Program-made: the position numbers and the translations under genes
Source: a virus
Taxonomy: Duplodnaviria; Heunggongvirae; Uroviricota; Caudoviricetes
IMG/VR virus record: IMGVR_UViG_3300028952_000009
Reading direction: 5' to 3' (one strand)
DNA: 8,388 bases
Notes under the pieces: model-generated
Database searches by the model: none
Seen by the model: only the letters and a program-made list of their open reading frames with translations
Told to the model about the DNA's origin: nothing
Part shown: piece by piece, positions 1 to 8,388 of the stretch
Numbering within the stretch: the stretch's first letter is position 1
Layout: each line of letters begins with the position of its first letter

Positions 1-36
1 TGAACAGGAGGGACAGCTGATAGAAACAGAAGCCAC
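1..36 (-). CDS. insA: IS1 InsA, first 12 codons only (gene runs off the left edge)
   Basis: Minus strand 36 to 1 reads GTG GCT TCT GTT TCT ATC AGC TGT CCC TCC TGT TCA, i.e. (M)ASVSISCPSCS, matching the recalled InsA N-terminus with a GTG start. Too short to be in the ORF track. Confidence 0.65.
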   Translation of the reverse strand, partial: MASVSISCPSCS

Positions 37-91
37 TGGAGCACCTCAAAAACACCATCATACACTAAATCAGTAAGTTGGCAGCATCACC
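1..91 (-). mobile_element. IS1: IS1 insertion sequence, terminal 91 bp; the element continues beyond the left window edge
   Basis: Positions 69-91 read ATCAGTAAGTTGGCAGCATCACC, the reverse complement of the IS1 terminal inverted repeat GGTGATGCTGCCAACTTACTGAT. Positions 1-68 continue as the reverse complement of the adjoining IS1 interior, including the insA start. The match is to recalled IS1 sequence, not a search. The element boundary is at 91/92 and the flanking bases 92-100 are TGATGGTTA. Confidence 0.8.
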
Positions 92-228
92 TGATGGTTA
101 TATCGGGAAAAGGTTACAGAAGGCTGAGGGCATAATTGAAGGGATGTTAATGGCATTAGATATCCGGTTAGAGATGGATATCGTTGTTAATAACTCTAAT
201 TAATATGCCAATTGTTTACTAAAAATTA

Positions 229-254
229 TTAAAAATGGGGCGTTGAGACGCCCC
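229..254 (-). terminator. Rho-independent terminator for the nmpC / IpeX-like transcript
   Basis: GGGGCG (237-242) and CGCCCC (249-254) form a 6-bp GC stem with a 6-nt loop. On the minus strand the stem is followed directly by a U-rich run (complement of 226-236, AUUUUUAAUAAUUUUU). It lies about 140 nt downstream of the nmpC stop. Confidence 0.6.
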
Positions 255-342
255 CAAAAATAAAGGGTAATATATAACAGAAGGTTTATATAGTTAGAAG
301 CAAGGTTGTGCTTCTAAAGGAAGTGGCTTGAGGGAGCCACTT

Positions 343-382
343 ATATGTTGGGGAGGCAAAGCCTCCCGCAACATATCTTTTT
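343..382 (+). terminator. Plus-strand intrinsic-terminator-like hairpin abutting the 3' end of nmpC
   Basis: ATATGTTGGGGAGGC (343-357), loop AAA (358-360), GCCTCCC-g-CAACATAT (361-376, g368 bulged), followed on the plus strand by CTTTTT (377-382). On the minus strand no U-tract follows it, so its terminator polarity is opposite to nmpC. Confidence 0.45.
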
Positions 383-392
383 CGTAATCAGA

Positions 393-1475
393 TTAGAACT
401 GATACACCAGACCTACAGCGACGATGTCGTCGGTATCAATACCAGCTGTTTTGGTAAACTTACTATCGTCAATTAAGTTGATTTTGTAATCAACAAAAGT
501 GGACATGTTTTTATTAAAGTAGTAAGTAGCACCGACATCGACATACTTGACTAAGTCTCGGTCACCATGAACACCAAGGTCTTTACCTTTTGACTGAAGG
601 TAAGCAACAGATGGTCGCAGACCGAAGTCAAACTGATATTGTGCTACTGCTTCAAAGTTTTGTGCTTTGTTTGCAATATGGTTATTACCAAAAACGGTCA
701 TATTCTGAGTTTCAGAATATGTGGTAGCCAGATAGATATTGTTCGCATCATATTTCAGGCCTGCAGCCCATACTTCCGCATTTTTGCCGGAGGCATTGAA
801 TTTGCTCTTACCATAGGCGACCTGACCGTCAGTGCGATCTGATTTAGCATAGGTTGCACCCACGCCGAATCCTTCATACTCATAAGTAGTGGAGAAACCG
901 AAACCATCACCATTGGCTTCAGTTACGTCAGTGCGGTCATTTTTACCCTGATACTGAGCAGCAAAGTTCAGGCCATCGACCAGACCAAAGAAGTCGTTGT
1001 TACGATAGGTTGCAACACCAGTGGTGCGACCAGTCATGAACACATCTGTTTGGGTCCAGGTATCGCCACCGAATTCTGGCAGAACGTCAGTCCACGCACC
1101 GATGTCGTATGCTACACCGTAGTTACGGCCGTAATCGATTGAGCCGTAGTCACCGAATTTCAGGCCTGCAAATGCAAGACGGGTTTTGTCTTTGGAGGAA
1201 CCTTGAGATTCAGCGCGGTTGCCTTTGAATTCATATTCCCACTGACCGAAACCAGTCAGTTGATCGTTGATTTGGGTTTCACCTTTGAAGCCAAGACGGG
1301 CATAAGTAGTATCACCATCATCTGCATCGTTAGAGGAAAAGTAGTGCTTGGCATTAACTTTCCCGTACAGATCCAGCTTGTTACTGTCTTTATTATAAAT
1401 TTCAGCTGCCTGAGCAGACATCGCCATCAGTACTGATGCAGCTACAGCAGAAATTGCCACTGTTAATTTTTTCAT
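393..1475 (-). CDS. nmpC: Outer membrane porin of the OmpC/OmpF/PhoE family; prophage NmpC/Lc-type porin, apparently intact (360 aa)
   Basis: Full ORF from the track. N-terminal signal peptide [23 protein letters not shown] followed by AEIYNKD; porin-typical motifs; C-terminal aromatic ...VGLVYQF. SD-like AAGGG a few nt upstream of the ATG (complement of 1476-1490). Location between the Q region and the lysis cassette matches DLP12 nmpC and PA-2 lc. No IS5 interruption as in K-12. Confidence 0.92.
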
Positions 1476-2063
1476 CGTGAGCCCTTTTTTTTGAACTATT
1501 ATTAAAAAATGATGTCACTGCGCGATAAATATTCATCTAATCAATGTGATTATTTCAAGATGTAAGTTTTAGTTTCTCATTTAATTTGTGAAGTAGATCT
1601 CTATTTTTATCTGAACTTTTTCTATCGAAACCTATTTATGGCTCTTATTTGAACAAAAATAAACCTATTAGCTAATTTATATTAATGGCTGTTATTTATG
1701 GGGGTTCTATAATTCAGTGGTTTAATTTAAATCAGCTAAAAATAACGCCGGAAATTATTTATTGGTTATTTGTTGAGGTTTTCTTATATATTTGTGGTGG
1801 TGTTTTGAACACTCGGTAGCATTCTCATAAATATCATTCAGTGGTTTACGTACGTAAAAAATTGGTTATGCTGTTAAGAGTGGTTACTTCGTCACACAGC
1901 TTAAACCCGCCGTCGAGCTGGTTTTTCCATTTTTTGAGTCTCGATATTAGCTGATAACTCAATACCTGAGTTATTCACTGACTCCGAGTCTGTTACGTTT
2001 CTGCTTTTTTGCGATACGTTGTATTCCCTCAATTTACACCCGCTTTGTCTGCGAGGTGGGGTT

Positions 2064-2279
2064 ATGAAATCCATGGATAAGTTAACAACGGGTGTCGCCT
2101 ATGGCACCTCAGCAGGTAGTGCCGGTTACTGGTTTTTACAGCTGCTCGATAAAGTCACGCCCTCACAGTGGGCAGCAATAGGTGTGCTGGGTAGCCTGGT
2201 ATTTGGCCTGCTGACGTACCTGACAAACCTTTATTTCAAGATTAAAGAAGATAAGCGCAAGGCTGCGAGAGGTGAATAA
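2064..2279 (+). CDS. essD: Class II holin (pinholin), phage 21 S-type, 71 aa with dual-start motif
   Basis: ATG at 2064 is preceded by GAGGTGGGG (2053-2061). The product [26 protein letters not shown]... has two transmembrane segments (a Gly/Ala-rich SAR-like TMD1 and a hydrophobic TMD2) and a charged C-terminus. Met1-Lys-Ser-Met4 is the antiholin/holin dual start known for S21. The track ORF begins at 2019, but no RBS supports that start. Confidence 0.9.
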
Positions 2280-2776
2280 TGCCTCCATCATTACGAAAAG
2301 CCGTTGCTGCTGCTATTGGTGGCGGAGCAATTGCTATAGCATCAGTGTTAATCACTGGCCCAAGTGGTAACGATGGTCTGGAAGGTGTCAGCTACATACC
2401 ATACAAAGATATTGTTGGTGTATGGGCTGTATGTCACGGGCATACAGGAAAAGACATCATGCTCGGTAAAACGTATACCAAAGCAGAATGCAAAGCCCTC
2501 CTGAATAAAGACCTTGCCACGGTCGCCAGACAAATTAACCCGTACATAAAAGTTGATATACCGGAAACAACGCGCGGCGCTCTTTACTCGTTCGTTTACA
2601 ACGTGGGCGCTGGCAATTTCAGAACATCGACGCTTCTTCGCAAAATAAACCAGGGCGATATCAAAGGCGCATGTGATCAGCTACGTCGCTGGACATATGC
2701 TGGCGGTAAGCAATGGAAAGGTCTCATGACTCGTCGTGAGATTGAGCGTGAAATCTGTTTGTGGGGTCAGCAATGA
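2279..2776 (+). CDS. rrrD: SAR (signal-anchor-release) endolysin, T4-lysozyme-like muramidase, phage 21 R-type, 165 aa
   Basis: Start ATG overlaps the holin stop (TAATG at 2277-2281). N-terminal weakly hydrophobic Gly/Ala-rich SAR domain [20 protein letters not shown]. Glu35 (2381-2383) and Asp44 (2408-2410) are at T4L-like spacing. Residue 50 is Ala (gct, 2426-2428); see findings. Confidence 0.9.
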
Positions 2777-3234
2777 ACAGAGTAACCGCGATTATCTCCG
2801 CTCTGGTTATCTGCATCATCGTCTGCCTGTCATGGGCTGTTAATCATTACCGTGATAACGCCATTACCTACAAAGCCCAGCGCGACAAAAATGCCAGAGA
2901 ACTGAAGCTGGCGAACGCGGCAATTACTGACATGCAGATGCGCCAGCGTGATGTTGCTGCACTGGATGAAAAATACACGAAGGAGTTAGCTAATGCGAAA
3001 GCTGAAAATGATGCTCTGCGTGATGATGTTGCCGCTGGTCGTCGTCGGTTGCACATCAAAGCAGTCTGTCAGTCAGTGCGTGAAGCCACCACCGCCTCCG
3101 GCGTGGATAATGCAGCCTCCCCCCGACTGGCAGACACCGCTGAACGGGATTATTTCACCCTCAGAGAGAGGCTGATCACTATGCAAAAACAACTGGAAGG
3201 AACCCAGAAGTATATTAATGAGCAGTGCAGATAG
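2773..3234 (+). CDS. rzpD: Rz i-spanin (inner-membrane spanin subunit), 153 aa
   Basis: ATG at 2773-2775 overlaps the endolysin stop TGA at 2774-2776 (ATGA). N-terminal [23 protein letters not shown], then a coiled-coil-rich periplasmic domain. The track calls a GTG at 2761, which I reject because it lies inside the endolysin and the ATG gives the canonical overlap. Near-identical to recalled lambda Rz. Confidence 0.9.
2993..3175 (+). CDS. rzoD: Rz1 o-spanin lipoprotein, embedded in the +1 frame of Rz, 60 aa
   Basis: ATG at 2993 with AGGAG (2981-2985) 7 nt upstream. Lipoprotein signal [20 protein letters not shown] with lipobox VVG-C20; mature part is proline-rich (PPPPP). Lies wholly inside the Rz ORF in another frame. 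Confidence 0.85.
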
Positions 3235-3259
3235 AGCTGCCCATATCGATGGGCAACTC
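3234..3259. terminator. Stem-loop between convergent Rz and bor; possible weak bidirectional terminator or RNA 3'-end stabiliser
   Basis: TGCCCAT (3238-3244), loop ATCG, ATGGGCA (3249-3255), extendable with one mismatch to GAG/CTC (3234-3236 with 3257-3259). No U-tract on either strand, so termination efficiency is doubtful. Confidence 0.3.
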
Positions 3260-3265
3260 ATGCAA

Positions 3266-3559
3266 TTATTGTGAGCAATACACACGCGCTTCCAGCGGAG
3301 TATAAATGCCTAAAGTAATAAAACCGAGCAATCCATTTACGAATGTTTGCTGGGTTTCTGTTTTAACAACATTTTCTGCGCCGCCACAAATTTTGGCTGC
3401 ATCAACAGTTTTCTCCTGTCCAATTCCCGAAACGAAGAAGTGATGGGTGATGGTTTCCTTTGGTGTTACTGCTGTCGGTTTGTTTCCAACAGTAAACGTC
3501 TGTTGAGCACATCCTGTAATAAGCATTGCCAGAGCGGCAGAAAACAACATTTTTTTCAT
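3266..3559 (-). CDS. borD: Bor lipoprotein (lambda bor family, serum-resistance-associated outer membrane lipoprotein), 97 aa
   Basis: Minus-strand ATG at 3557-3559 with AGGA about 7 nt upstream (complement of 3566-3569). Lipoprotein signal MKKMLFSAALAMLITGC (lipobox ITG-C). The track ORF extends to 3607, but the upstream Mets lack a signal-peptide context. Convergent with Rz, as in lambda. Confidence 0.9.
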   Translation of the reverse strand: MKKMLFSAALAMLITGCAQQTFTVGNKPTAVTPKETITHHFFVSGIGQEKTVDAAKICGGAENVVKTETQQTFVNGLLGFITLGIYTPLEARVYCSQ

Positions 3560-3919
3560 CTTATTATCCTGCATTGTTAAAAACGGCAGAATCCTATGTG
3601 ACAACAATTAAACGATAGTTAAATGGATTGATGAAAATTAAAACTATATAGGTGGATGCTCAGCCTATTGGAGGAGGGGGGGCACTCAGAATCCTGTGGA
3701 ATGAAATAAACCGCTCTTTCTGTCCATTACCCTTTTAGCTGCGCTGTATCGTCGCCGTATTCCCGCATTAACCATGACCGTAGCCCGACGGGGAATTCCT
3801 TCTGCGTGAGTGTGCGGGAATAATCAAAAACGATGCACACCGGGTTTTACTGTGCTGACAGACGCAGGGTTACCCTCATAGTCGCTTTTCCGGTGCGATG
3901 GTGGAAGAAACCGGGATGT

Positions 3920-4114
3920 TTATTCATCATCACTCTGGATTGATGTATATGCTCTCTTTTCTGACGTTAGTCTCCGACGGCAGGCTTCAATGACCCAGGC
4001 TGAGAAATTCCCAGACCCTTTTTGCTCAAGAGCGATGTTAATTTGTTCAATCATTTGGTTAGGAAAGCGGATGTTGCGGGTTGTTGTTCTGCGGGTTCTG
4101 TTCTTAGTTGACAT
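3920..4114 (-). CDS. ylcI: Small YlcI/YnfO-family (DUF3950) protein, 64 aa; predicted ribbon-helix-helix-like DNA-binding fold
   Basis: Full ORF from the track. Basic N-terminus (KNRTRRTTTRNIRF) followed by a strand-helix-G-x-S-helix pattern (NIRFPNQMIEQINIALEQKGSGNFSAWVIEACRRRL) typical of RHH proteins. Position immediately upstream of cos matches ylcI in DLP12 and an equivalent small ORF at the right end of lambda, by recollection. The RHH assignment is inference from sequence pattern. Confidence 0.75.
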   Translation of the reverse strand: MSTKNRTRRTTTRNIRFPNQMIEQINIALEQKGSGNFSAWVIEACRRRLTSEKRAYTSIQSDDE

Positions 4115-4313
4115 GAGGTTGCCCCGTATTCAGTGTCGCTGATTTGTATTGTCTGAAGTTGTTTTTACGTTAAGTTGATGCAGATCAATTAATACGATAC
4201 CTGCGTCATAATTGATTATTTGACGTGGTTTGATGGCGTAGATGCACGTTGTGACATGTAGATGATAATTATTATCATTTTGCGGGTCCTTTCCGGCGAT
4301 CCGACAGGTTACG

Positions 4314-4325
4314 GGGCGGCGACCT
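4314..4325. other. cosN: lambda-type cohesive-end site (12-nt GGGCGGCGACCT); cosQ-like sequence lies about 20-35 bp upstream (about 4280-4296)
   Basis: The sequence ACAGGTTACG|GGGCGGCGACCT|CGCGGGTTTTCGC at 4304-4338 matches the recalled junction of the lambda right and left ends around its 12-nt cohesive end. 4170-4313 resembles the recalled lambda right-end sequence. Confidence 0.8.
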
Positions 4326-4352
4326 CGCGGGTTTTCGCTATTTATGAAAATT

Positions 4353-4478
4353 TTCCGGTTTAAGGCATTTCCGTTCTTCTTCGTCGTAACTTAATGTTTT
4401 TATTTAAAATACCCCCTGAAAAGAAAGGAAACGACAGGTGCTGAAAACGAGCTTTTGGGCCTCTGTCGTTTCCTTTCT
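4353..4478. promoter_or_regulatory. cosB: terminase small-subunit (Nu1) binding sites R3, R2, R1, with an AT-rich IHF-type site between R3 and R2
   Basis: R1 CTGTCGTTTCCTTTCT (4463-4478) and its exact inverted copy AGAAAGGAAACGACAG (4423-4438, R2) are seen directly. A degenerate R3-like AAGGCATTTCCGTTCT is at 4353-4368. The AT-rich stretch 4381-4420 is a plausible IHF site. Spacing to cosN and to the Nu1 start (4503) matches the lambda layout. Confidence 0.65.
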
Positions 4479-4502
4479 CTGTTTTTGGCCGTGGAATGAA
4501 CA

Positions 4503-5078
4503 ATGGAAGTCAACAAAAAGCAGCTGGCTGACATTTTCGGTGCGAGTATCCGTACCATTCAGAACTGGCAGGAACAGGGAATGCCCGTTCTGCGAGGCGG
4601 TGGCAAGGGTAATGAGGTGCTTTATGACTCTGCCGCCGTTATAAGATGGTATGCCGAAAGGGATGCTGAAATTGAGAACGAAAAGCTGCGCCGGGAAGTT
4701 GAAGAACTGCGGCAGGCCAGCGAGACAGATCTCCAGCCAGGGACTATTGAGTACGAACGCCATCGACTTACGCGTGCGCAGGCCGACGCACAGGAGCTGA
4801 AAAATGCCAGAGACTCCGCTGAAGTGGTGGAAACCGCATTCTGTACTTTCGTGCTGTCGCGGATCGCAGGTGAAATTGCCAGTATTCTCGACGGGATCCC
4901 CCTGTCGGTGCAGCGGCGTTTTCCGGAACTGGAAAACCGACATGTTGATTTCCTGAAACGGGATATCATCAAAGCCATGAACAAAGCAGCCGCGCTGGAT
5001 GAACTGATACCCGAACACGGCACTGGTCGGCGTGCAGGTGGACTCGGAGCAGTTCGGCAGCCAGCAGGTGAGCCGTAA
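4503..5078 (+). CDS. nohD: Terminase small subunit Nu1 homolog, C-terminally truncated by a deletion: about 170 Nu1-like residues, then a 21-residue out-of-frame tail read from J-derived DNA
   Basis: ATG at 4503. [54 protein letters not shown]... is the Nu1 winged-HTH DNA-binding N-terminus. Nu1 similarity runs to ...[10 protein letters not shown] (through about 5011); the rest ([21 protein letters not shown]) is unrelated. The gpA-interacting extreme C-terminus is therefore lost. Confidence 0.88.
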
Positions 5079-7854
5079 TTATCATCTTCGCGGGCGCATT
5101 CTGCAGGTGCCGTCGAACTATAACCCGCAGACGCGGCAATACAGCGGTATCTGGGACGGAACGTTTAAGCCGGCATACAGCAACAACCCGGCCTGGTGTC
5201 TGTGGGATATGCTGACCCACCCGCGCTACGGCATGGGGAAACGTCTTGGTGCGGCGGATGTGGATAAATGGGCGCTGTATGTCATCGGCCAGTACTGCGA
5301 CCAGTCAGTGCCGGACGGTTTTGGCGGCACGGAGCCGCGCATCACCTGTAATGCCTACCTGACCACGCAGCGTAAGGCGTGGGATGTGCTCAGTGATTTC
5401 TGCTCGGCGATGCGCTGTATGCCGGTATGGAACGGGCAGACGCTGACGTTCGTGCAGGACCGACCATCAGATAAGGTGTGGACCTATAACCGCAGTAATG
5501 TGGTGATGCCGGATGATGGCGCGCCGTTCCGCTACAGCTTCAGCGCCCTGAAGGACCGCCATAATGCCGTTGAGGTGAACTGGATTGACCCGAATAACGG
5601 CTGGGAGACGGCGACAGAGCTTGTTGAAGATACGCAGGCCATTCTCCGTTACGGTCGTAACGTCACGAAGATGGATGCCTTTGGCTGTACCAGCCGGGGG
5701 CAGGCACACCGCGCCGGGCTGTGGCTGATTAAAACGGAGCTGCTGGAAACGCAGACCGTGGACTTCAGCGTGGGTGCCGAAGGGCTTCGCCATGTACCGG
5801 GCGATGTCATTGAAATCTGCGATGATGACTATGCCGGTATCCGCACCGGCGGGCGCGTGCTGGCGGTAAACAGCCAGACCCGGACGCTGACGCTCGACCG
5901 TGAAATCACGCTGCCATCTTCCGGCACCACGCTGATAAGCCTGGTTGACGGGCAGGGGAGTCCGGTCAGCGTGGAGGTTCAGTCCGTCACCGACGGCGTG
6001 AAGGTGAAAGTGAGCCGTGTTCCTGACGGCGTTGCTGAATACAGCGTATGGGGGCTGAAGCTGCCGACGTTGCGCCAGCGCCTGTTCCGCTGCGTGAGTA
6101 TCCGTGAGAACGACGACGGCACGTATGCCATCACCGCCGTGCAGCATGTACCGGAAAAAGAGGCCATCGTGGATAACGGGGCGCACTTTGACGGCGACCA
6201 GAGCGGCACGGTAAATGGTGTCACGCCGCCAGCGGTGCAGCACCTGACCGCAGAAGTCACCGCAGACAGCGGGGAATACCAGGTGCTGGCCCGCTGGGAT
6301 ACGCCGAAGGTGGTGAAGGGCGTGAGCTTCCTGCTTCGCCTGACCGTGGCAGCGGATGACGGCCGTGAGCGACTGGTCAGCACGGCCCGGACGACGGAAA
6401 CCACTTACCGCTTCACACAACTGGCTCTGGGGAACTACAGGCTGACAGTCCGGGCAGTAAATGCGTGGGGGCAGCAGGGCGAGCCGGCGTCGGTATCGTT
6501 CCGGATTGCCGCACCGGCAGCGCCGTCGCAGATTGAGCTGACACCGGGGTATTTTCAGATAACCGCCACGCCGCATCTTGCGGTTTATGATCCGACGGTA
6601 CAGTTTGAGTTCTGGTTCTCGGAAAAGCGGATTGCGGATATCAGGCAGGTTGAAACCACAGCACGCTATCTTGGCACGGCGCTGTACTGGATAGCCGCCA
6701 GTATCAATATCAAACCGGGCCATGATTATTATTTTTACATCCGCAGTGTGAACACCGTTGGCAAATCGGCATTCGTGGAGGCTGTTGGCCAGCCGAGTGA
6801 TGATGCATCCGGCTATCTGAATTTTTTCAAAGGAGAGATAGGGAAAACCCATCTGGCTCAGGAGTTGTGGACGCAGATTGATAACGGTCAGCTTGCGCCT
6901 GACCTGGCGGAAATCAGAACGTCCATCACGGATGTCAGTAATGAAATCACGCAGACCGTCAATAAGAAACTGGAAGACCAGAGTGCGGCAATCCAGCAGA
7001 TACAGAAGGTTCAGGTTGATACAAATAATAACCTGAACAGCATGTGGGCTGTGAAGCTGCAGCAGATGCAGGACGGACGCCTTTATATCGCGGGTATTGG
7101 TGCCGGTATTGAGAATACCCCTGACGGTATGCAGAGTCAGGTGCTGCTGGCGGCGGACAGGATTGCGATGATTAATCCTGCGAATGGCAACACAAAGCCG
7201 ATGTTTGTTGGTCAGGGCGATCAGATATTCATGAACGAAGTGTTCCTGAAATATCTGACGGCTCCCACCATTACCAGCGGCGGTAATCCTCCGGCATTTT
7301 CCCTGACACCGGACGGGCGGCTGACGGCGAAAAATGCCGATATTAGCGGTAACGTGAATGCGAACTCCGGGACGCTCAACAACGTCACGATTAACGAGAA
7401 CTGCCGGGTTCTGGGAAAACTGTCCGCGAACCAGATTGAAGGCGATCTCGTTAAAACAGTGGGCAAAGCTTTCCCCCGGGACTCCCGTGCACCGGAGCGG
7501 TGGCCATCAGGGACCATTACCGTCAGGGTTTATGACGATCAGCCGTTTGACCGGCAAATTGTTATTCCGGCGGTGGCATTCAGTGGCGCTAAACATGAGC
7601 AAGATCATACTGATATCTACTCCTCATGCCGTCTGATAGTACGAAAAAACGGTGCTGAAATTTATAACCGAACGGCTCTGGATAATACGCTGATATATAC
7701 GGGTGTTATTGATATGCCTGCAGGCAGTGGTGTAATGACACTGGAATTTTCTGTATCGGCATGGCTGGTAAATGGCTGGTATCCCACAGCAAGTATCAGC
7801 GATTTGCTGGTTGTGGTGATGAAGAAAGCCACTGCAGGCATCATGATTAGCTGA
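5008..7854 (+). pseudogene. J: 5'-truncated tail-tip / host-specificity protein J (central fibre); about 948 codons open and in frame, but no native start or promoter
   Basis: From 5008 ([51 protein letters not shown]...) the frame matches recalled lambda J from roughly residue 185 onward and stays open to the stop at 7852-7854. A TGA at 5005-5007 sits just upstream in this frame. The track's 5032 start is a GTG inside J with no SD. The frame is +1 relative to Nu1, so no fusion protein is made. Confidence 0.85.
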
Positions 7855-7872
7855 ATTTTATAACCCATAACG

Positions 7873-7899
7873 GGCGTCAGAAATGACGCCTTTTTTATT
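7873..7899 (+). terminator. Rho-independent terminator immediately after J
   Basis: GGCGTCA (7873-7879), loop GAAA (7880-7883), TGACGCC (7884-7890), then TTTTTTATT (7891-7899). Confidence 0.7.
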
Positions 7900-7920
7900 G
7901 CAGAAAAGCGAGAGGTAATT

Positions 7921-8388
7921 ATGCGTAAACTTTATGCCGCCATTTTGTCCGTAGCCATTTGTCTGGCCGTATCCGGTGCGCCTGCATGGGCGTCTGAACA
8001 TCAGTCCACGCTGAGCGCGGGGTATCTTCATGCCTCGACGAACGTTCCCGGCAGCGATGATCTGAACGGGATTAACGTGAAATACCGTTATGAGTTTACG
8101 GACACGCTGGGGCTGGTGACGTCATTCAGTTATGCCAATGCCAAAGATGAGCAAAAAACGCATTACAGCGATACCCGCTGGCATGAAGATTCCGTGCGTA
8201 ACCGCTGGTTCAGCGTGATGGCGGGGCCGTCTGTGCGCGTGAATGAATGGTTCAGCGCGTATGCGATGGCGGGTATGGCTTACAGCCGTGTGTCGACCTT
8301 CTCCGGGGATTATCTCCGCGTAACTGACAACAAGGGGAAAACGCACGATGTGCTGACCGGAAGTGATGACGGTCGCCACAGCAACACG
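7921..8388 (+). CDS. lom: Lom outer membrane protein (Ail/Lom/OmpX family), 3' partial (first 156 codons; gene runs off the right edge)
   Basis: ATG at 7921 with GAGAGG/GAGG (about 7908-7914) upstream. Signal peptide MRKLYAAILSVAICLAVSGAPAWA followed by SEHQSTLSAGYLHASTN...; near-identical to recalled lambda Lom. Gene order J then lom as in lambda. Confidence 0.9.
   Translation, partial: MRKLYAAILSVAICLAVSGAPAWASEHQSTLSAGYLHASTNVPGSDDLNGINVKYRYEFTDTLGLVTSFSYANAKDEQKTHYSDTRWHEDSVRNRWFSVMAGPSVRVNEWFSAYAMAGMAYSRVSTFSGDYLRVTDNKGKTHDVLTGSDDGRHSNT

What the first reader, a model, noticed from the sequence alone, without database searches (positions are those of the whole stretch)
2279..2776. SAR endolysin has Ala at the position where the T4-lysozyme-type catalytic Thr is expected
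T4-lysozyme-like SAR endolysins (P1 Lyz, phage 21 R) use a Glu-x8-Asp-x5-Thr triad. Here Glu35 and Asp44 are present at the right spacing, but residue 50 is Ala (codon GCT at 2426-2428; local sequence [15 protein letters not shown]). A Thr is usually reported at this position, so this may be an attenuated or inactive endolysin, for example a lysis cassette domesticated for non-lytic functions. It may also be tolerated natural variation. I cannot verify from memory what the phage 21 and K-12 reference proteins carry at this residue.
Basis: partly seen in the sequence, partly recalled or inferred. Interest (0 to 1): 0.5.

Follow-up and report, generated by a model that had tools for sequence, protein, structure and literature searches.

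The report
Rare Thr50Ala allele of prophage lysozyme RrrD
The lysozyme gene of an old, broken-down prophage (DLP12) in this E. coli carries a real but rare single-letter mutation that replaces one of three active-site residues. It most likely reflects recent decay, or mild weakening, of a gene the virus no longer needs, not a new kind of enzyme.

Summary
ORF 2279-2776 is the SAR endolysin RrrD of cryptic prophage DLP12. It has Glu35 and Asp44 but Ala50 (GCT, 2426-2428), where phage 21 R (3HDE) and K-12 RrrD (4ZPU) have the triad Thr. A profile alignment puts T4 lysozyme Thr26 at residue 50, not at Thr56.

Thr is close to invariant in the family: 266 of 270 homologues, at least 120 viral contigs against one with Ala, and no Ala among GTDB species representatives or JGI metagenomes.

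The allele is real. It is found in two complete genomes and dozens of draft assemblies. It is also rare (2 of 5426 complete E. coli genomes) and very recent: apart from a SNP cluster at the recombination boundary (7868-7886), 2426 is one of only two differences from E. coli B across 7.8 kb.

It arose after the prophage had lost all head and tail genes. In this window the late-gene activator quuD is also cut by IS1. An independent Thr50Ala allele exists in a decayed Shigella flexneri prophage.

Experimental precedents conflict: pesticin T201A is inactive, while Lys68 T35A is about wild type. The loss of activity is therefore probable but unmeasured.

The best reading is a recent missense change under relaxed selection, probably hypomorphic. 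Adaptive detoxification remains possible but has no direct support.

The parts
2279..2776 (+). rrrD, the SAR endolysin (GH24 lysozyme) of cryptic prophage DLP12, Thr50Ala allele, 165 aa
   Evidence: ORF. Pfam PF00959, E 1.7e-44. 163/165 identical to 4zpu and 3hde. Annotated rrrD, WP_098704289.1, in TUM10008 and EC24.
2426..2428 (+). Codon 50, GCT (Ala), where relatives have ACT (Thr). G2426 is the derived base (A in E. coli B REL606).
   Evidence: Sequence. SNP list against REL606. Alignment.
2381..2383 (+). Codon 35, GAA (Glu): the general acid of the triad, retained
   Evidence: Profile alignment to T4L Glu11. PMC8228626 Table 3.
2408..2410 (+). Codon 44, GAT (Asp): the second triad residue, retained
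   Evidence: Profile alignment to T4L Asp20. PMC8228626 Table 3.
2279..2356 (+). N-terminal signal-anchor-release (SAR) segment, residues 1-26 ([26 protein letters not shown]), unchanged from phage 21 R
   Evidence: Identical to residues 1-26 of full-length 3hde. The Gly/Ala-rich weakly hydrophobic stretch is read from the sequence.
2064..2279 (+). essD, phage-21-type pinholin, 71 aa, intact. Its stop overlaps the rrrD start by one base.
   Evidence: Pfam PF04971, E 2e-35. Annotated essD, WP_000839596.1, the same protein as in REL606.
2773..3234 (+). rzpD (Rz-type i-spanin), intact, ATGA overlap with rrrD
   Evidence: Pfam PF03245, E 4.3e-54. Annotated rzpD.
2993..3175 (+). rzoD (Rz1-type o-spanin lipoprotein) embedded in rzpD in the +1 frame, intact
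   Evidence: Pfam PF06085, E 2.9e-20.
1..91 (.). End of an IS1 copy inserted in the late-gene antiterminator gene quuD
   Evidence: Matches IS1 copies in L001. Sequence. TUM10008 annotation shows quuD split by IS1. Loci with intact quuD match the window only from base 91.
93..203 (+). 3' remnant of quuD (C-terminal 36 codons)
   Evidence: Corresponds to the quuD 3' pseudogene piece at L001 9815-9925.
4503..5078 (+). Nu1-type small terminase gene (nohD) whose 3' end is fused to a truncated J gene. The deletion junction is near 5011/5012.
   Evidence: Pfam PF07471. Identity with L006 ends at 5011. The junction 44-mer is found in 65-71 complete genomes.
5032..7854 (+). 5'-truncated tail tip gene J. 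All head and tail genes between Nu1 and J are missing.
   Evidence: Pfam J-domain hits. Annotated as a pseudogene 'missing N-terminus'.

Best explanation
This is the ordinary DLP12 lysis cassette (pinholin EssD, SAR endolysin RrrD, spanins RzpD/RzoD). The endolysin gene has picked up one recent A-to-G transition (ACT to GCT) that replaces triad residue Thr50 with Ala. Shown: the change is real, derived, rare and confined to one E. coli lineage. Shown: it arose after the prophage had lost every head and tail gene through a Nu1-J deletion. Shown: in this window the late-gene antiterminator quuD is also cut by IS1. Inferred from T4 lysozyme chemistry: Glu35 (general acid) and Asp44 are intact, but the hydroxyl that helps Asp hold the attacking water is gone. 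The enzyme should therefore still be exported, released and folded like R21, with lowered turnover, anywhere from mildly to severely reduced. Inferred: because a defective prophage no longer needs timed lysis, the mutation was neutral or slightly favourable to the host and simply persisted. It is decay under relaxed selection, not a designed new function.
For: T50A is the only difference from the common allele P0003. The SNP-centred 55-mer is found in 2 of 5426 complete E. coli genomes. The window differs from E. coli B REL606 over 7.8 kb only at 1735, at 2426 and in a recombination-boundary cluster at 7868-7886. The Nu1-J deletion junction is shared by 65-71 genomes, including B, C and ATCC 8739 strains. 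Only two genomes in the whole collection carry the Ala base, so the rest must have another base there; the B and C strains listed match the gene at 99.8%, one mismatch in 498 nt. The deletion therefore predates the SNP. IS1 lies in quuD here and in TUM10008, and between the porin gene and essD in EC24. Thr is nearly invariant: 266/270 homologues; at least 120 viral contigs with Thr against 1 Ala, 1 Asp and 1 Ser; no Ala in GTDB species representatives or JGI metagenomes. A second, independent Ala50 allele (90% nucleotide identity, flanked by different polymorphisms) sits in a Shigella flexneri prophage remnant whose Rz is cut by an IS. So Ala was seen in two prophages that show clear decay; one unresolved contig (L006) joins the window's allele to an apparently intact terminase and portal module. 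Role of the Thr: with Asp20 it hydrogen-bonds the nucleophilic water (PMC8334348; PMC2976769 Table 2). Pesticin T201A, the structural equivalent, is inactive (PMC3390615).
Against: No activity measurement exists for this allele, and none was found for T4L T26A. Lys68 Thr35Ala, at the homologous T-I-G-Y-G-H motif, has activity similar to wild type (PMC4188523), so the allele could be functionally silent. One of only two point differences in 7.8 kb hits a triad codon. Under uniform mutation that is about 2 in 1000 (my arithmetic: 22 of 23,400 possible changes per SNP). Together with the recurrence in Shigella, this could indicate selection and not drift. One contig (L006) joins the Ala50 cassette to an apparently intact terminase and portal module, which, if real, weakens the claim that Ala occurs only in defective prophages.
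Confidence: 0.62

Rival explanations
1. Adaptive detoxification or domestication. Weakening the endolysin was selected because the cryptic cassette is a liability (accidental lysis, release of immunostimulatory peptidoglycan), or because a low-activity muramidase serves host wall turnover or vesicle control, as in SpmX.
For: The same Thr-to-Ala change arose independently in E. coli DLP12 and in a S. flexneri prophage. One of two SNPs in 7.8 kb hits the triad. SpmX is a GH24 domain that lost D20 and T26 yet keeps attenuated, functional activity (bioRxiv 10.1101/418723). The DLP12 lysis module affects vesiculation and wall maintenance, and its loss in Shigella is described as pathoadaptive (PMC7918800). 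Some Ala50 strains still have intact quuD (L002, L004, L005, EC24), so the cassette could still be inducible there.
Against: The allele is rare (2/5426 complete genomes, about 3% of genomes with the same deleted prophage) with no sign of a sweep. Asp44 and Tyr42 are unchanged and no other substitution accompanies it. With 4841 distinct sequences in the cluster, I would expect recurrence of a single transition without selection (inference). Within the Ala50 clade, IS1 has hit the cassette's regulation at least twice (quuD; the porin-essD spacer), which looks like continuing decay and not refinement.
Confidence: 0.13
2. Functionally silent polymorphism. Ala50 RrrD is about as active as Thr50 RrrD, and the change is ordinary tolerated variation.
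For: Lys68 Thr35Ala has activity similar to wild type while Glu18Ala is dead (PMC4188523). T4L T26S is neutral, and the T4L substitutions reported as inactive or greatly reduced are bulky or charged (Y, R, K, E), which fits steric blocking as the cause, not loss of the hydroxyl. The other ORFs of the cassette are intact in all Ala50 loci.
Against: Thr is close to invariant across relatives from about 40% to 99% identity, and Ala was not found in any confirmed intact phage or prophage, nor in any species representative or metagenome hit, with this motif. That argues for purifying selection on the hydroxyl. Lys68 belongs to a subgroup without the triad Asp, so it is an imperfect model. Pesticin T201A is inactive.
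Confidence: 0.22
3. Artefact: a sequencing or assembly error at 2426, or a misregistered alignment in which the real catalytic Thr is Thr56.
For: None found.
Against: The same base is present in two complete genomes and in many independent draft and metagenome assemblies. PDB and profile alignments place T4L Thr26, R21 Thr50 and RrrD Thr50 at residue 50 with no gaps nearby. The literature lists Thr50.
Confidence: 0.01

Closest known systems
RrrD (YbcS), endolysin of cryptic prophage DLP12 of E. coli K-12 (PDB 4ZPU)
   Same: Same gene at the same locus, with the same neighbours (porin, essD, rzpD/rzoD, bor/iss, ylcI, nohD). 163/165 residues identical, with the same SAR segment, Glu35 and Asp44.
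   Different: Ala instead of Thr at 50, and Ile instead of Val at 159. The prophage here carries a different deletion (Nu1 fused to J), an intact porin gene and IS1 in quuD.
Phage 21 endolysin R21 (PDB 3HDE membrane-tethered form, 3HDF active form)
   Same: 163/165 identical. Prototype SAR endolysin paired with the S21 pinholin. Triad Glu35/Asp44/Thr50.
   Different: T50A and M98T. R21 belongs to a viable phage, whereas this copy sits in a prophage without structural genes.
T4 lysozyme Thr26 mutants
   Same: Residue 50 is the profile-aligned equivalent of Thr26, which together with Asp20 holds the attacking water.
   Different: Reported T4L data cover T26S (neutral), T26Y/R/K (inactive), T26E (inactive, covalent adduct) and T26H (retaining transglycosidase). 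T26Q, the inactive T26 mutant behind the Tyr18 second-site revertants mentioned, is identified from memory. I found no T26A data.
Pesticin (Yersinia pestis) T201A
   Same: T4L-fold muramidase. Thr201 is structurally conserved with T4L Thr26, and its Ala mutant gave no lysis zones (PMC3390615).
   Different: A distant homologue (13% identity to T4L) with the Asp in a different position. It is a bacteriocin domain, not a SAR endolysin.
Salmonella phage endolysin Lys68, Thr35Ala
   Same: GH24 endolysin mutated at the same T-I-G-Y-G-H motif threonine. The Ala mutant kept wild-type-like muralytic activity (PMC4188523).
   Different: Lys68 lacks the triad Asp and has no SAR domain.
SpmX muramidase domain (Caulobacterales)
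   Same: A phage GH24 lysozyme that keeps the catalytic Glu, has lost constraint at T26, and retains attenuated activity.
   Different: SpmX also lost D20 and Tyr18, is fused into a host developmental protein, and its changes are conserved across an order. Here there is one SNP in a rare lineage, with no fusion and Asp and Tyr retained.

Membership tests
GH24 T4-type (viral) lysozyme, Pfam PF00959 | Significant match to the family profile over the catalytic domain | tested here: met
   PF00959, E 1.7e-44, 151.6 bits against a cutoff of 22.3, residues 34-156.
GH24 T4-type (viral) lysozyme, Pfam PF00959 | General-acid Glu (T4L Glu11) | tested here: met
   Glu35, profile-aligned to T4L Glu11. 263 of 267 homologues with a residue at this column have Glu.
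GH24 T4-type (viral) lysozyme, Pfam PF00959 | Asp or Cys eight residues after the Glu (T4L Asp20) | tested here: met
   Asp44.
GH24 T4-type (viral) lysozyme, Pfam PF00959 | Thr five residues after the Asp (T4L Thr26), which positions the water | tested here: not met
   Ala50. This is a functional signature and not a homology criterion. At 99% identity the protein is an allele of RrrD, but full catalytic competence cannot be assumed.
GH24 T4-type (viral) lysozyme, Pfam PF00959 | Muramidase activity on peptidoglycan | not testable with these tools
   Needs an enzyme assay.
SAR endolysin with pinholin (phage 21 type) | N-terminal weakly hydrophobic Gly/Ala-rich signal-anchor-release segment | tested here: met
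   Residues 1-26 are identical to full-length R21 in 3hde.
SAR endolysin with pinholin (phage 21 type) | S21-type pinholin gene immediately upstream and Rz/Rz1 spanin genes downstream | tested here: met
   PF04971 (2064-2279), PF03245 (2773-3234) and PF06085 (2993-3175), all intact.
SAR endolysin with pinholin (phage 21 type) | Sec-dependent export and release from the membrane on depolarisation | not testable with these tools
   Experimental property, expected from the identity of the SAR segment.
DLP12 cryptic prophage lysis module | Synteny with DLP12 next to argU and intD, between quuD/porin and bor/ylcI/nohD | tested here: met
   TUM10008 and EC24 annotations. The window is 99.9-100% identical to these loci.
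Domesticated or detoxified GH24 domain (SpmX-like) | Active-site changes that are fixed and conserved across a clade, indicating selection for attenuated activity | tested here: not met
   Found in 2 of 5426 complete genomes and separated from the Thr allele of E. coli B by 0-5 SNPs per 8 kb. No accompanying changes.
Domesticated or detoxified GH24 domain (SpmX-like) | Recruitment into a host gene or host regulation with a demonstrated host function for the altered enzyme | not tested
   Host roles are published for the Thr50 K-12 module (PMC7918800). Nothing is known for the Ala50 allele.

The most novel reading that the evidence does not exclude
Thr50Ala is a recurrent, selected 'detoxifying' mutation. 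By removing the water-positioning hydroxyl it would turn the DLP12-type SAR endolysin into a low-activity muramidase that is safe to keep and useful for wall turnover or for limiting peptidoglycan release. It would have arisen independently in an E. coli lineage and in Shigella flexneri, giving an early, single-step snapshot of the path that produced SpmX.
Probability: 0.1. Interest if true: 0.5.

Novelty: already known. Interest (0 to 1): 0.2.

Why it matters
The significance is modest. The gene, the cassette and the catalytic triad are textbook, and the allele is already in databases under the name RrrD. The added value is threefold. First, it is a natural Thr-to-Ala replacement at a position that is almost never varied in this enzyme family. 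Second, it occurs twice independently, in two prophages that show clear decay, with one unresolved contig (L006) as a possible exception. Third, published alanine mutants at this position disagree (pesticin dead, Lys68 fine). A simple A50T comparison in the well-developed phage 21 lysis system would therefore show how much the canonical triad Thr actually contributes. For annotation, it is a reminder that 'lysozyme RrrD' calls can hide active-site variants.

Tried and rejected
1. Sequencing error: rejected, because the same base appears in many independent assemblies.

2. Catalytic Thr at residue 56: rejected by the PDB and profile alignments.

3. Ala common in the family: rejected by the homologue survey and four collection scans.

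4. Direct T26A data for T4 lysozyme: searched for and not found. Sun et al. 2009, Baase et al. 2010 and Kuroki et al. 1999 are not held.

5. My recollection that Lys68 T35A was nearly inactive was wrong. The paper says activity is similar to wild type.

6. Structure prediction was not run. A point mutant of a protein 99% identical to solved structures would give no discriminating information, and the tool returns no coordinates.

7. I could not count all independent substitutions at triad versus non-triad codons across E. coli, because only 40 cluster members and 60 BLAST rows can be read.

8. The promoter and terminator scan of 1400-3400 gave nothing above shuffled expectation.

Full report
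**What is there.** The ORF at 2279-2776 (+) encodes a 165-residue protein. It matches Pfam Phage_lysozyme PF00959 (E 1.7e-44). It is 163/165 identical to two solved proteins: K-12 RrrD (4ZPU) and phage 21 endolysin R21 (3HDE, 3HDF).

It is preceded by an intact phage-21-type pinholin gene (essD, 2064-2279, PF04971). It is followed by intact spanin genes (rzpD 2773-3234, PF03245; rzoD 2993-3175, PF06085). The wider window is the right half of cryptic prophage DLP12:
- an IS1 end cutting quuD (1-91) and a quuD remnant (93-203);
- an OmpC/NmpC-type porin (393-1475, minus strand);
- the lysis cassette;
- bor/iss (3266-3559, minus strand) and ylcI (3920-4114, minus strand);
- a Nu1-type small terminase gene (4503-5078) fused to a 5'-truncated J gene (5032-7854);
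- the start of a lom-like gene (7921 onward).

Codon 50 is GCT (2426-2428) within [15 protein letters not shown]. Both PDB references have Thr there. T50A is the only difference from the very common allele P0003, carried for example by E. coli B and C. The literature lists Glu35/Asp44/Thr50 as the triad of both the phage 21 and the DLP12 enzymes (PMC8228626 Table 3).

I built a profile from 236 homologues. It aligns T4 lysozyme Glu11, Asp20 and Thr26 with residues 35, 44 and 50.

**How unusual is Ala here?**
- Among 281 relatives, from near-identical down to about 40% identity, 266 of the 270 with a residue at this column have Thr. The exceptions are fragments or frameshifted pieces.
Only three real endolysin frames lacked Thr: one Ala, one Asp and one Ser.
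- Among 185,579 GTDB species representatives, the only genuine non-Thr case was a Ser in a Pantoea. That scan covered codons whose first base is not A.
- A JGI metagenome scan for the Ala version returned seven hits, none in a lysozyme frame.

**Is the allele real, and how old is it?** The exact protein (P0004, WP_098704289.1) is on record from 77 contigs or 181 index blocks. These include human-gut metagenome assemblies and two complete genomes: TUM10008 from Japan and EC24 from a pig in China.

I used a 55-mer centred on the SNP, so that every 28-base seed must contain the derived G. It hits only those two of 5426 complete E. coli genomes, while 3946 genomes carry an R21-type gene.

Over 7.8 kb the window differs from E. 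coli B REL606 only at 1735 (intergenic), at 2426 (T50A), and in a small cluster at 7868-7886 next to a recombination boundary. The mutation is therefore very recent.

The Nu1-J deletion junction is shared by 65-71 complete genomes, including B strains, strain C and ATCC 8739. Only the two genomes named above carry the Ala base anywhere in the collection. The prophage had therefore already lost all head and tail genes when the SNP arose.

Within the Ala50 clade:
- some strains keep an intact quuD (L002, L004, L005, EC24);
- others, including this window, have IS1 in quuD;
- EC24 has IS1 between the porin gene and essD.

**A second origin.** The single Ala hit in IMG/VR (L014) is a different allele, about 90% identical at the nucleotide level across the aligned cassette. 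It carries distinguishing polymorphisms 12 bp upstream and 14 bp downstream of the same ACT-to-GCT change. Its protein (P0283) is named lysozyme of Shigella flexneri and is seen on 53 contigs. It lies in a prophage remnant riddled with IS elements, and its Rz gene is cut after codon 80. No complete E. coli genome carries this allele.

So Thr50Ala has arisen at least twice, each time in a prophage that shows clear decay. One unresolved contig (L006, discussed below) may be an exception.

**Mechanistic expectation.** In T4 lysozyme the attacking water is hydrogen-bonded to Asp20 and Thr26, while Glu11 protonates the leaving group (PMC8334348; PMC2976769 Table 2). Ala50 removes one of the two ligands of that water and leaves Glu35, Asp44 and Tyr42 untouched. 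The SAR segment is unchanged. Export, membrane tethering and release should therefore proceed as for R21 (inference).

Published substitutions at this position give a mixed picture:
- T4L T26S is neutral. T26Y/R/K are inactive. T26E is inactive and forms a covalent adduct. T26H turns the enzyme into a retaining transglycosidase.
- T4L also has inactive T26 mutants whose second-site revertants map to Tyr18. That the original mutant was T26Q is from memory.
- Pesticin T201A, the structural equivalent, gave no lysis at any dilution (PMC3390615).
- Lys68 Thr35Ala, in the same T-I-G-Y-G-H motif but in an enzyme lacking the triad Asp, retained wild-type-like activity (PMC4188523).
- SpmX, a domesticated GH24 domain, has lost D20 and T26 yet keeps attenuated activity.

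I found no T26A measurement. The near-invariance of Thr in viable phages, set against Ala in decayed prophages, is population-level evidence that Ala costs phage fitness. The size of the catalytic defect remains unknown.

**Interpretation.** The best-supported reading is a recent missense mutation in a gene that phage selection no longer maintains. It is probably hypomorphic, and it persisted because it was neutral or mildly helpful to the host.

The adaptive-detoxification reading has some support. The change recurs. One of two SNPs in 7.8 kb hits a triad codon, roughly a 2-in-1000 event under uniform mutation, although the assessment is post hoc. The DLP12 module has host roles and is lost in Shigella (PMC7918800). 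Against it, the allele is rare and unaccompanied by other changes, and the cluster already holds 4841 sequence variants.

The silent-polymorphism reading rests mainly on Lys68, and the conservation data oppose it. Artefact explanations are excluded.

**Comparison with known systems.** By homology and synteny this is RrrD of DLP12, a phage-21-type SAR endolysin with its pinholin and spanins. It fails one functional signature of the GH24 triad, the Thr. Nothing here amounts to a new kind of system, and I rate it as already known, with low interest.

The one thing worth a small experiment is an A50T/T50A comparison in the phage 21 lysis system. It would settle how much the canonical triad Thr contributes.

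**Loose end.** Contig L006, from a fragmented assembly, is 100% identical to window 1-5011, including Ala50. It then continues into an intact terminase, gpW and portal module. That arrangement is common among lambdoid prophages, so this may be a recombinant or a mis-join. I could not resolve it.

Noticed in passing
window 1-203: The window opens with an IS1 end (1-91) inserted in the late-gene antiterminator gene quuD. Only the last 36 codons of quuD remain (93-203). Other Ala50 strains have quuD intact, so the IS1 insertion is later than T50A.
   Followed up: yes
window 4503-7854 (junction near 5011/5012): The small terminase gene is fused to a 5'-truncated J gene, deleting every head and tail gene. 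The same junction is in 65-71 complete E. coli genomes, including B (BL21, REL606), C and ATCC 8739.
   Followed up: yes
window 393-1475 (-): The prophage porin gene (NmpC/OmpC-like, 360 aa) is intact here, whereas it is cut by IS1 in REL606. DLP12 in these lineages has taken IS1 hits at three or more different sites (porin, quuD, porin-essD spacer).
   Followed up: partly
window 1735: An intergenic SNP (G here, A in REL606, EC24, L002, L004 and L005) in the porin-essD spacer travels with the IS1::quuD sublineage. I did not examine whether it touches a promoter of the lysis genes.
   Followed up: no
window 7868-8388: A SNP and indel cluster at 7868-7886 is followed by a lom/ail-like ORF that starts at 7921 and runs off the window. 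REL606 and TUM10008 lose identity after 7899, so this end is a recombination boundary that differs among otherwise near-identical prophages.
   Followed up: partly
L014 7364-7861 (IMG/VR UViG 2874915312_000007): An independent Thr50Ala allele of an R21-type endolysin in a Shigella flexneri prophage remnant. Rz is truncated by an IS3-family element, and IS1 and other IS copies lie nearby. The protein is seen on 53 contigs.
   Followed up: yes
L137 674-696 (IMG/VR 3300020047_006618, 55.7 kb contig): A SAR-type GH24 endolysin with Asp at the triad Thr position (SKDIGGVWDVCYGHTG) in what looks like a full-length viral contig. This may be a more interesting natural active-site variant than the Ala allele.
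   Followed up: no
L139 5541-5563 and L152 2188-2210 (Pantoea sp. 1.19): R21-like endolysins with Ser at the Thr position (GVWSVCYGHTG), the conservative replacement that is neutral in T4 lysozyme.
   Followed up: no
L006 1-8811 (GCA_008932165.1, SKEX01000991.1): A contig 100% identical to window 1-5011 (Ala50 included) that then continues into an intact large terminase, gpW and portal. It is either a recombinant prophage carrying the Ala allele or an assembly mis-join at the Nu1 repeat.
   Followed up: partly
L013 5244-5941 (E. coli EC24): In the other complete genome with Ala50, an IS1 sits between the porin gene and essD, which probably uncouples the lysis genes from upstream late transcription.
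   Followed up: no
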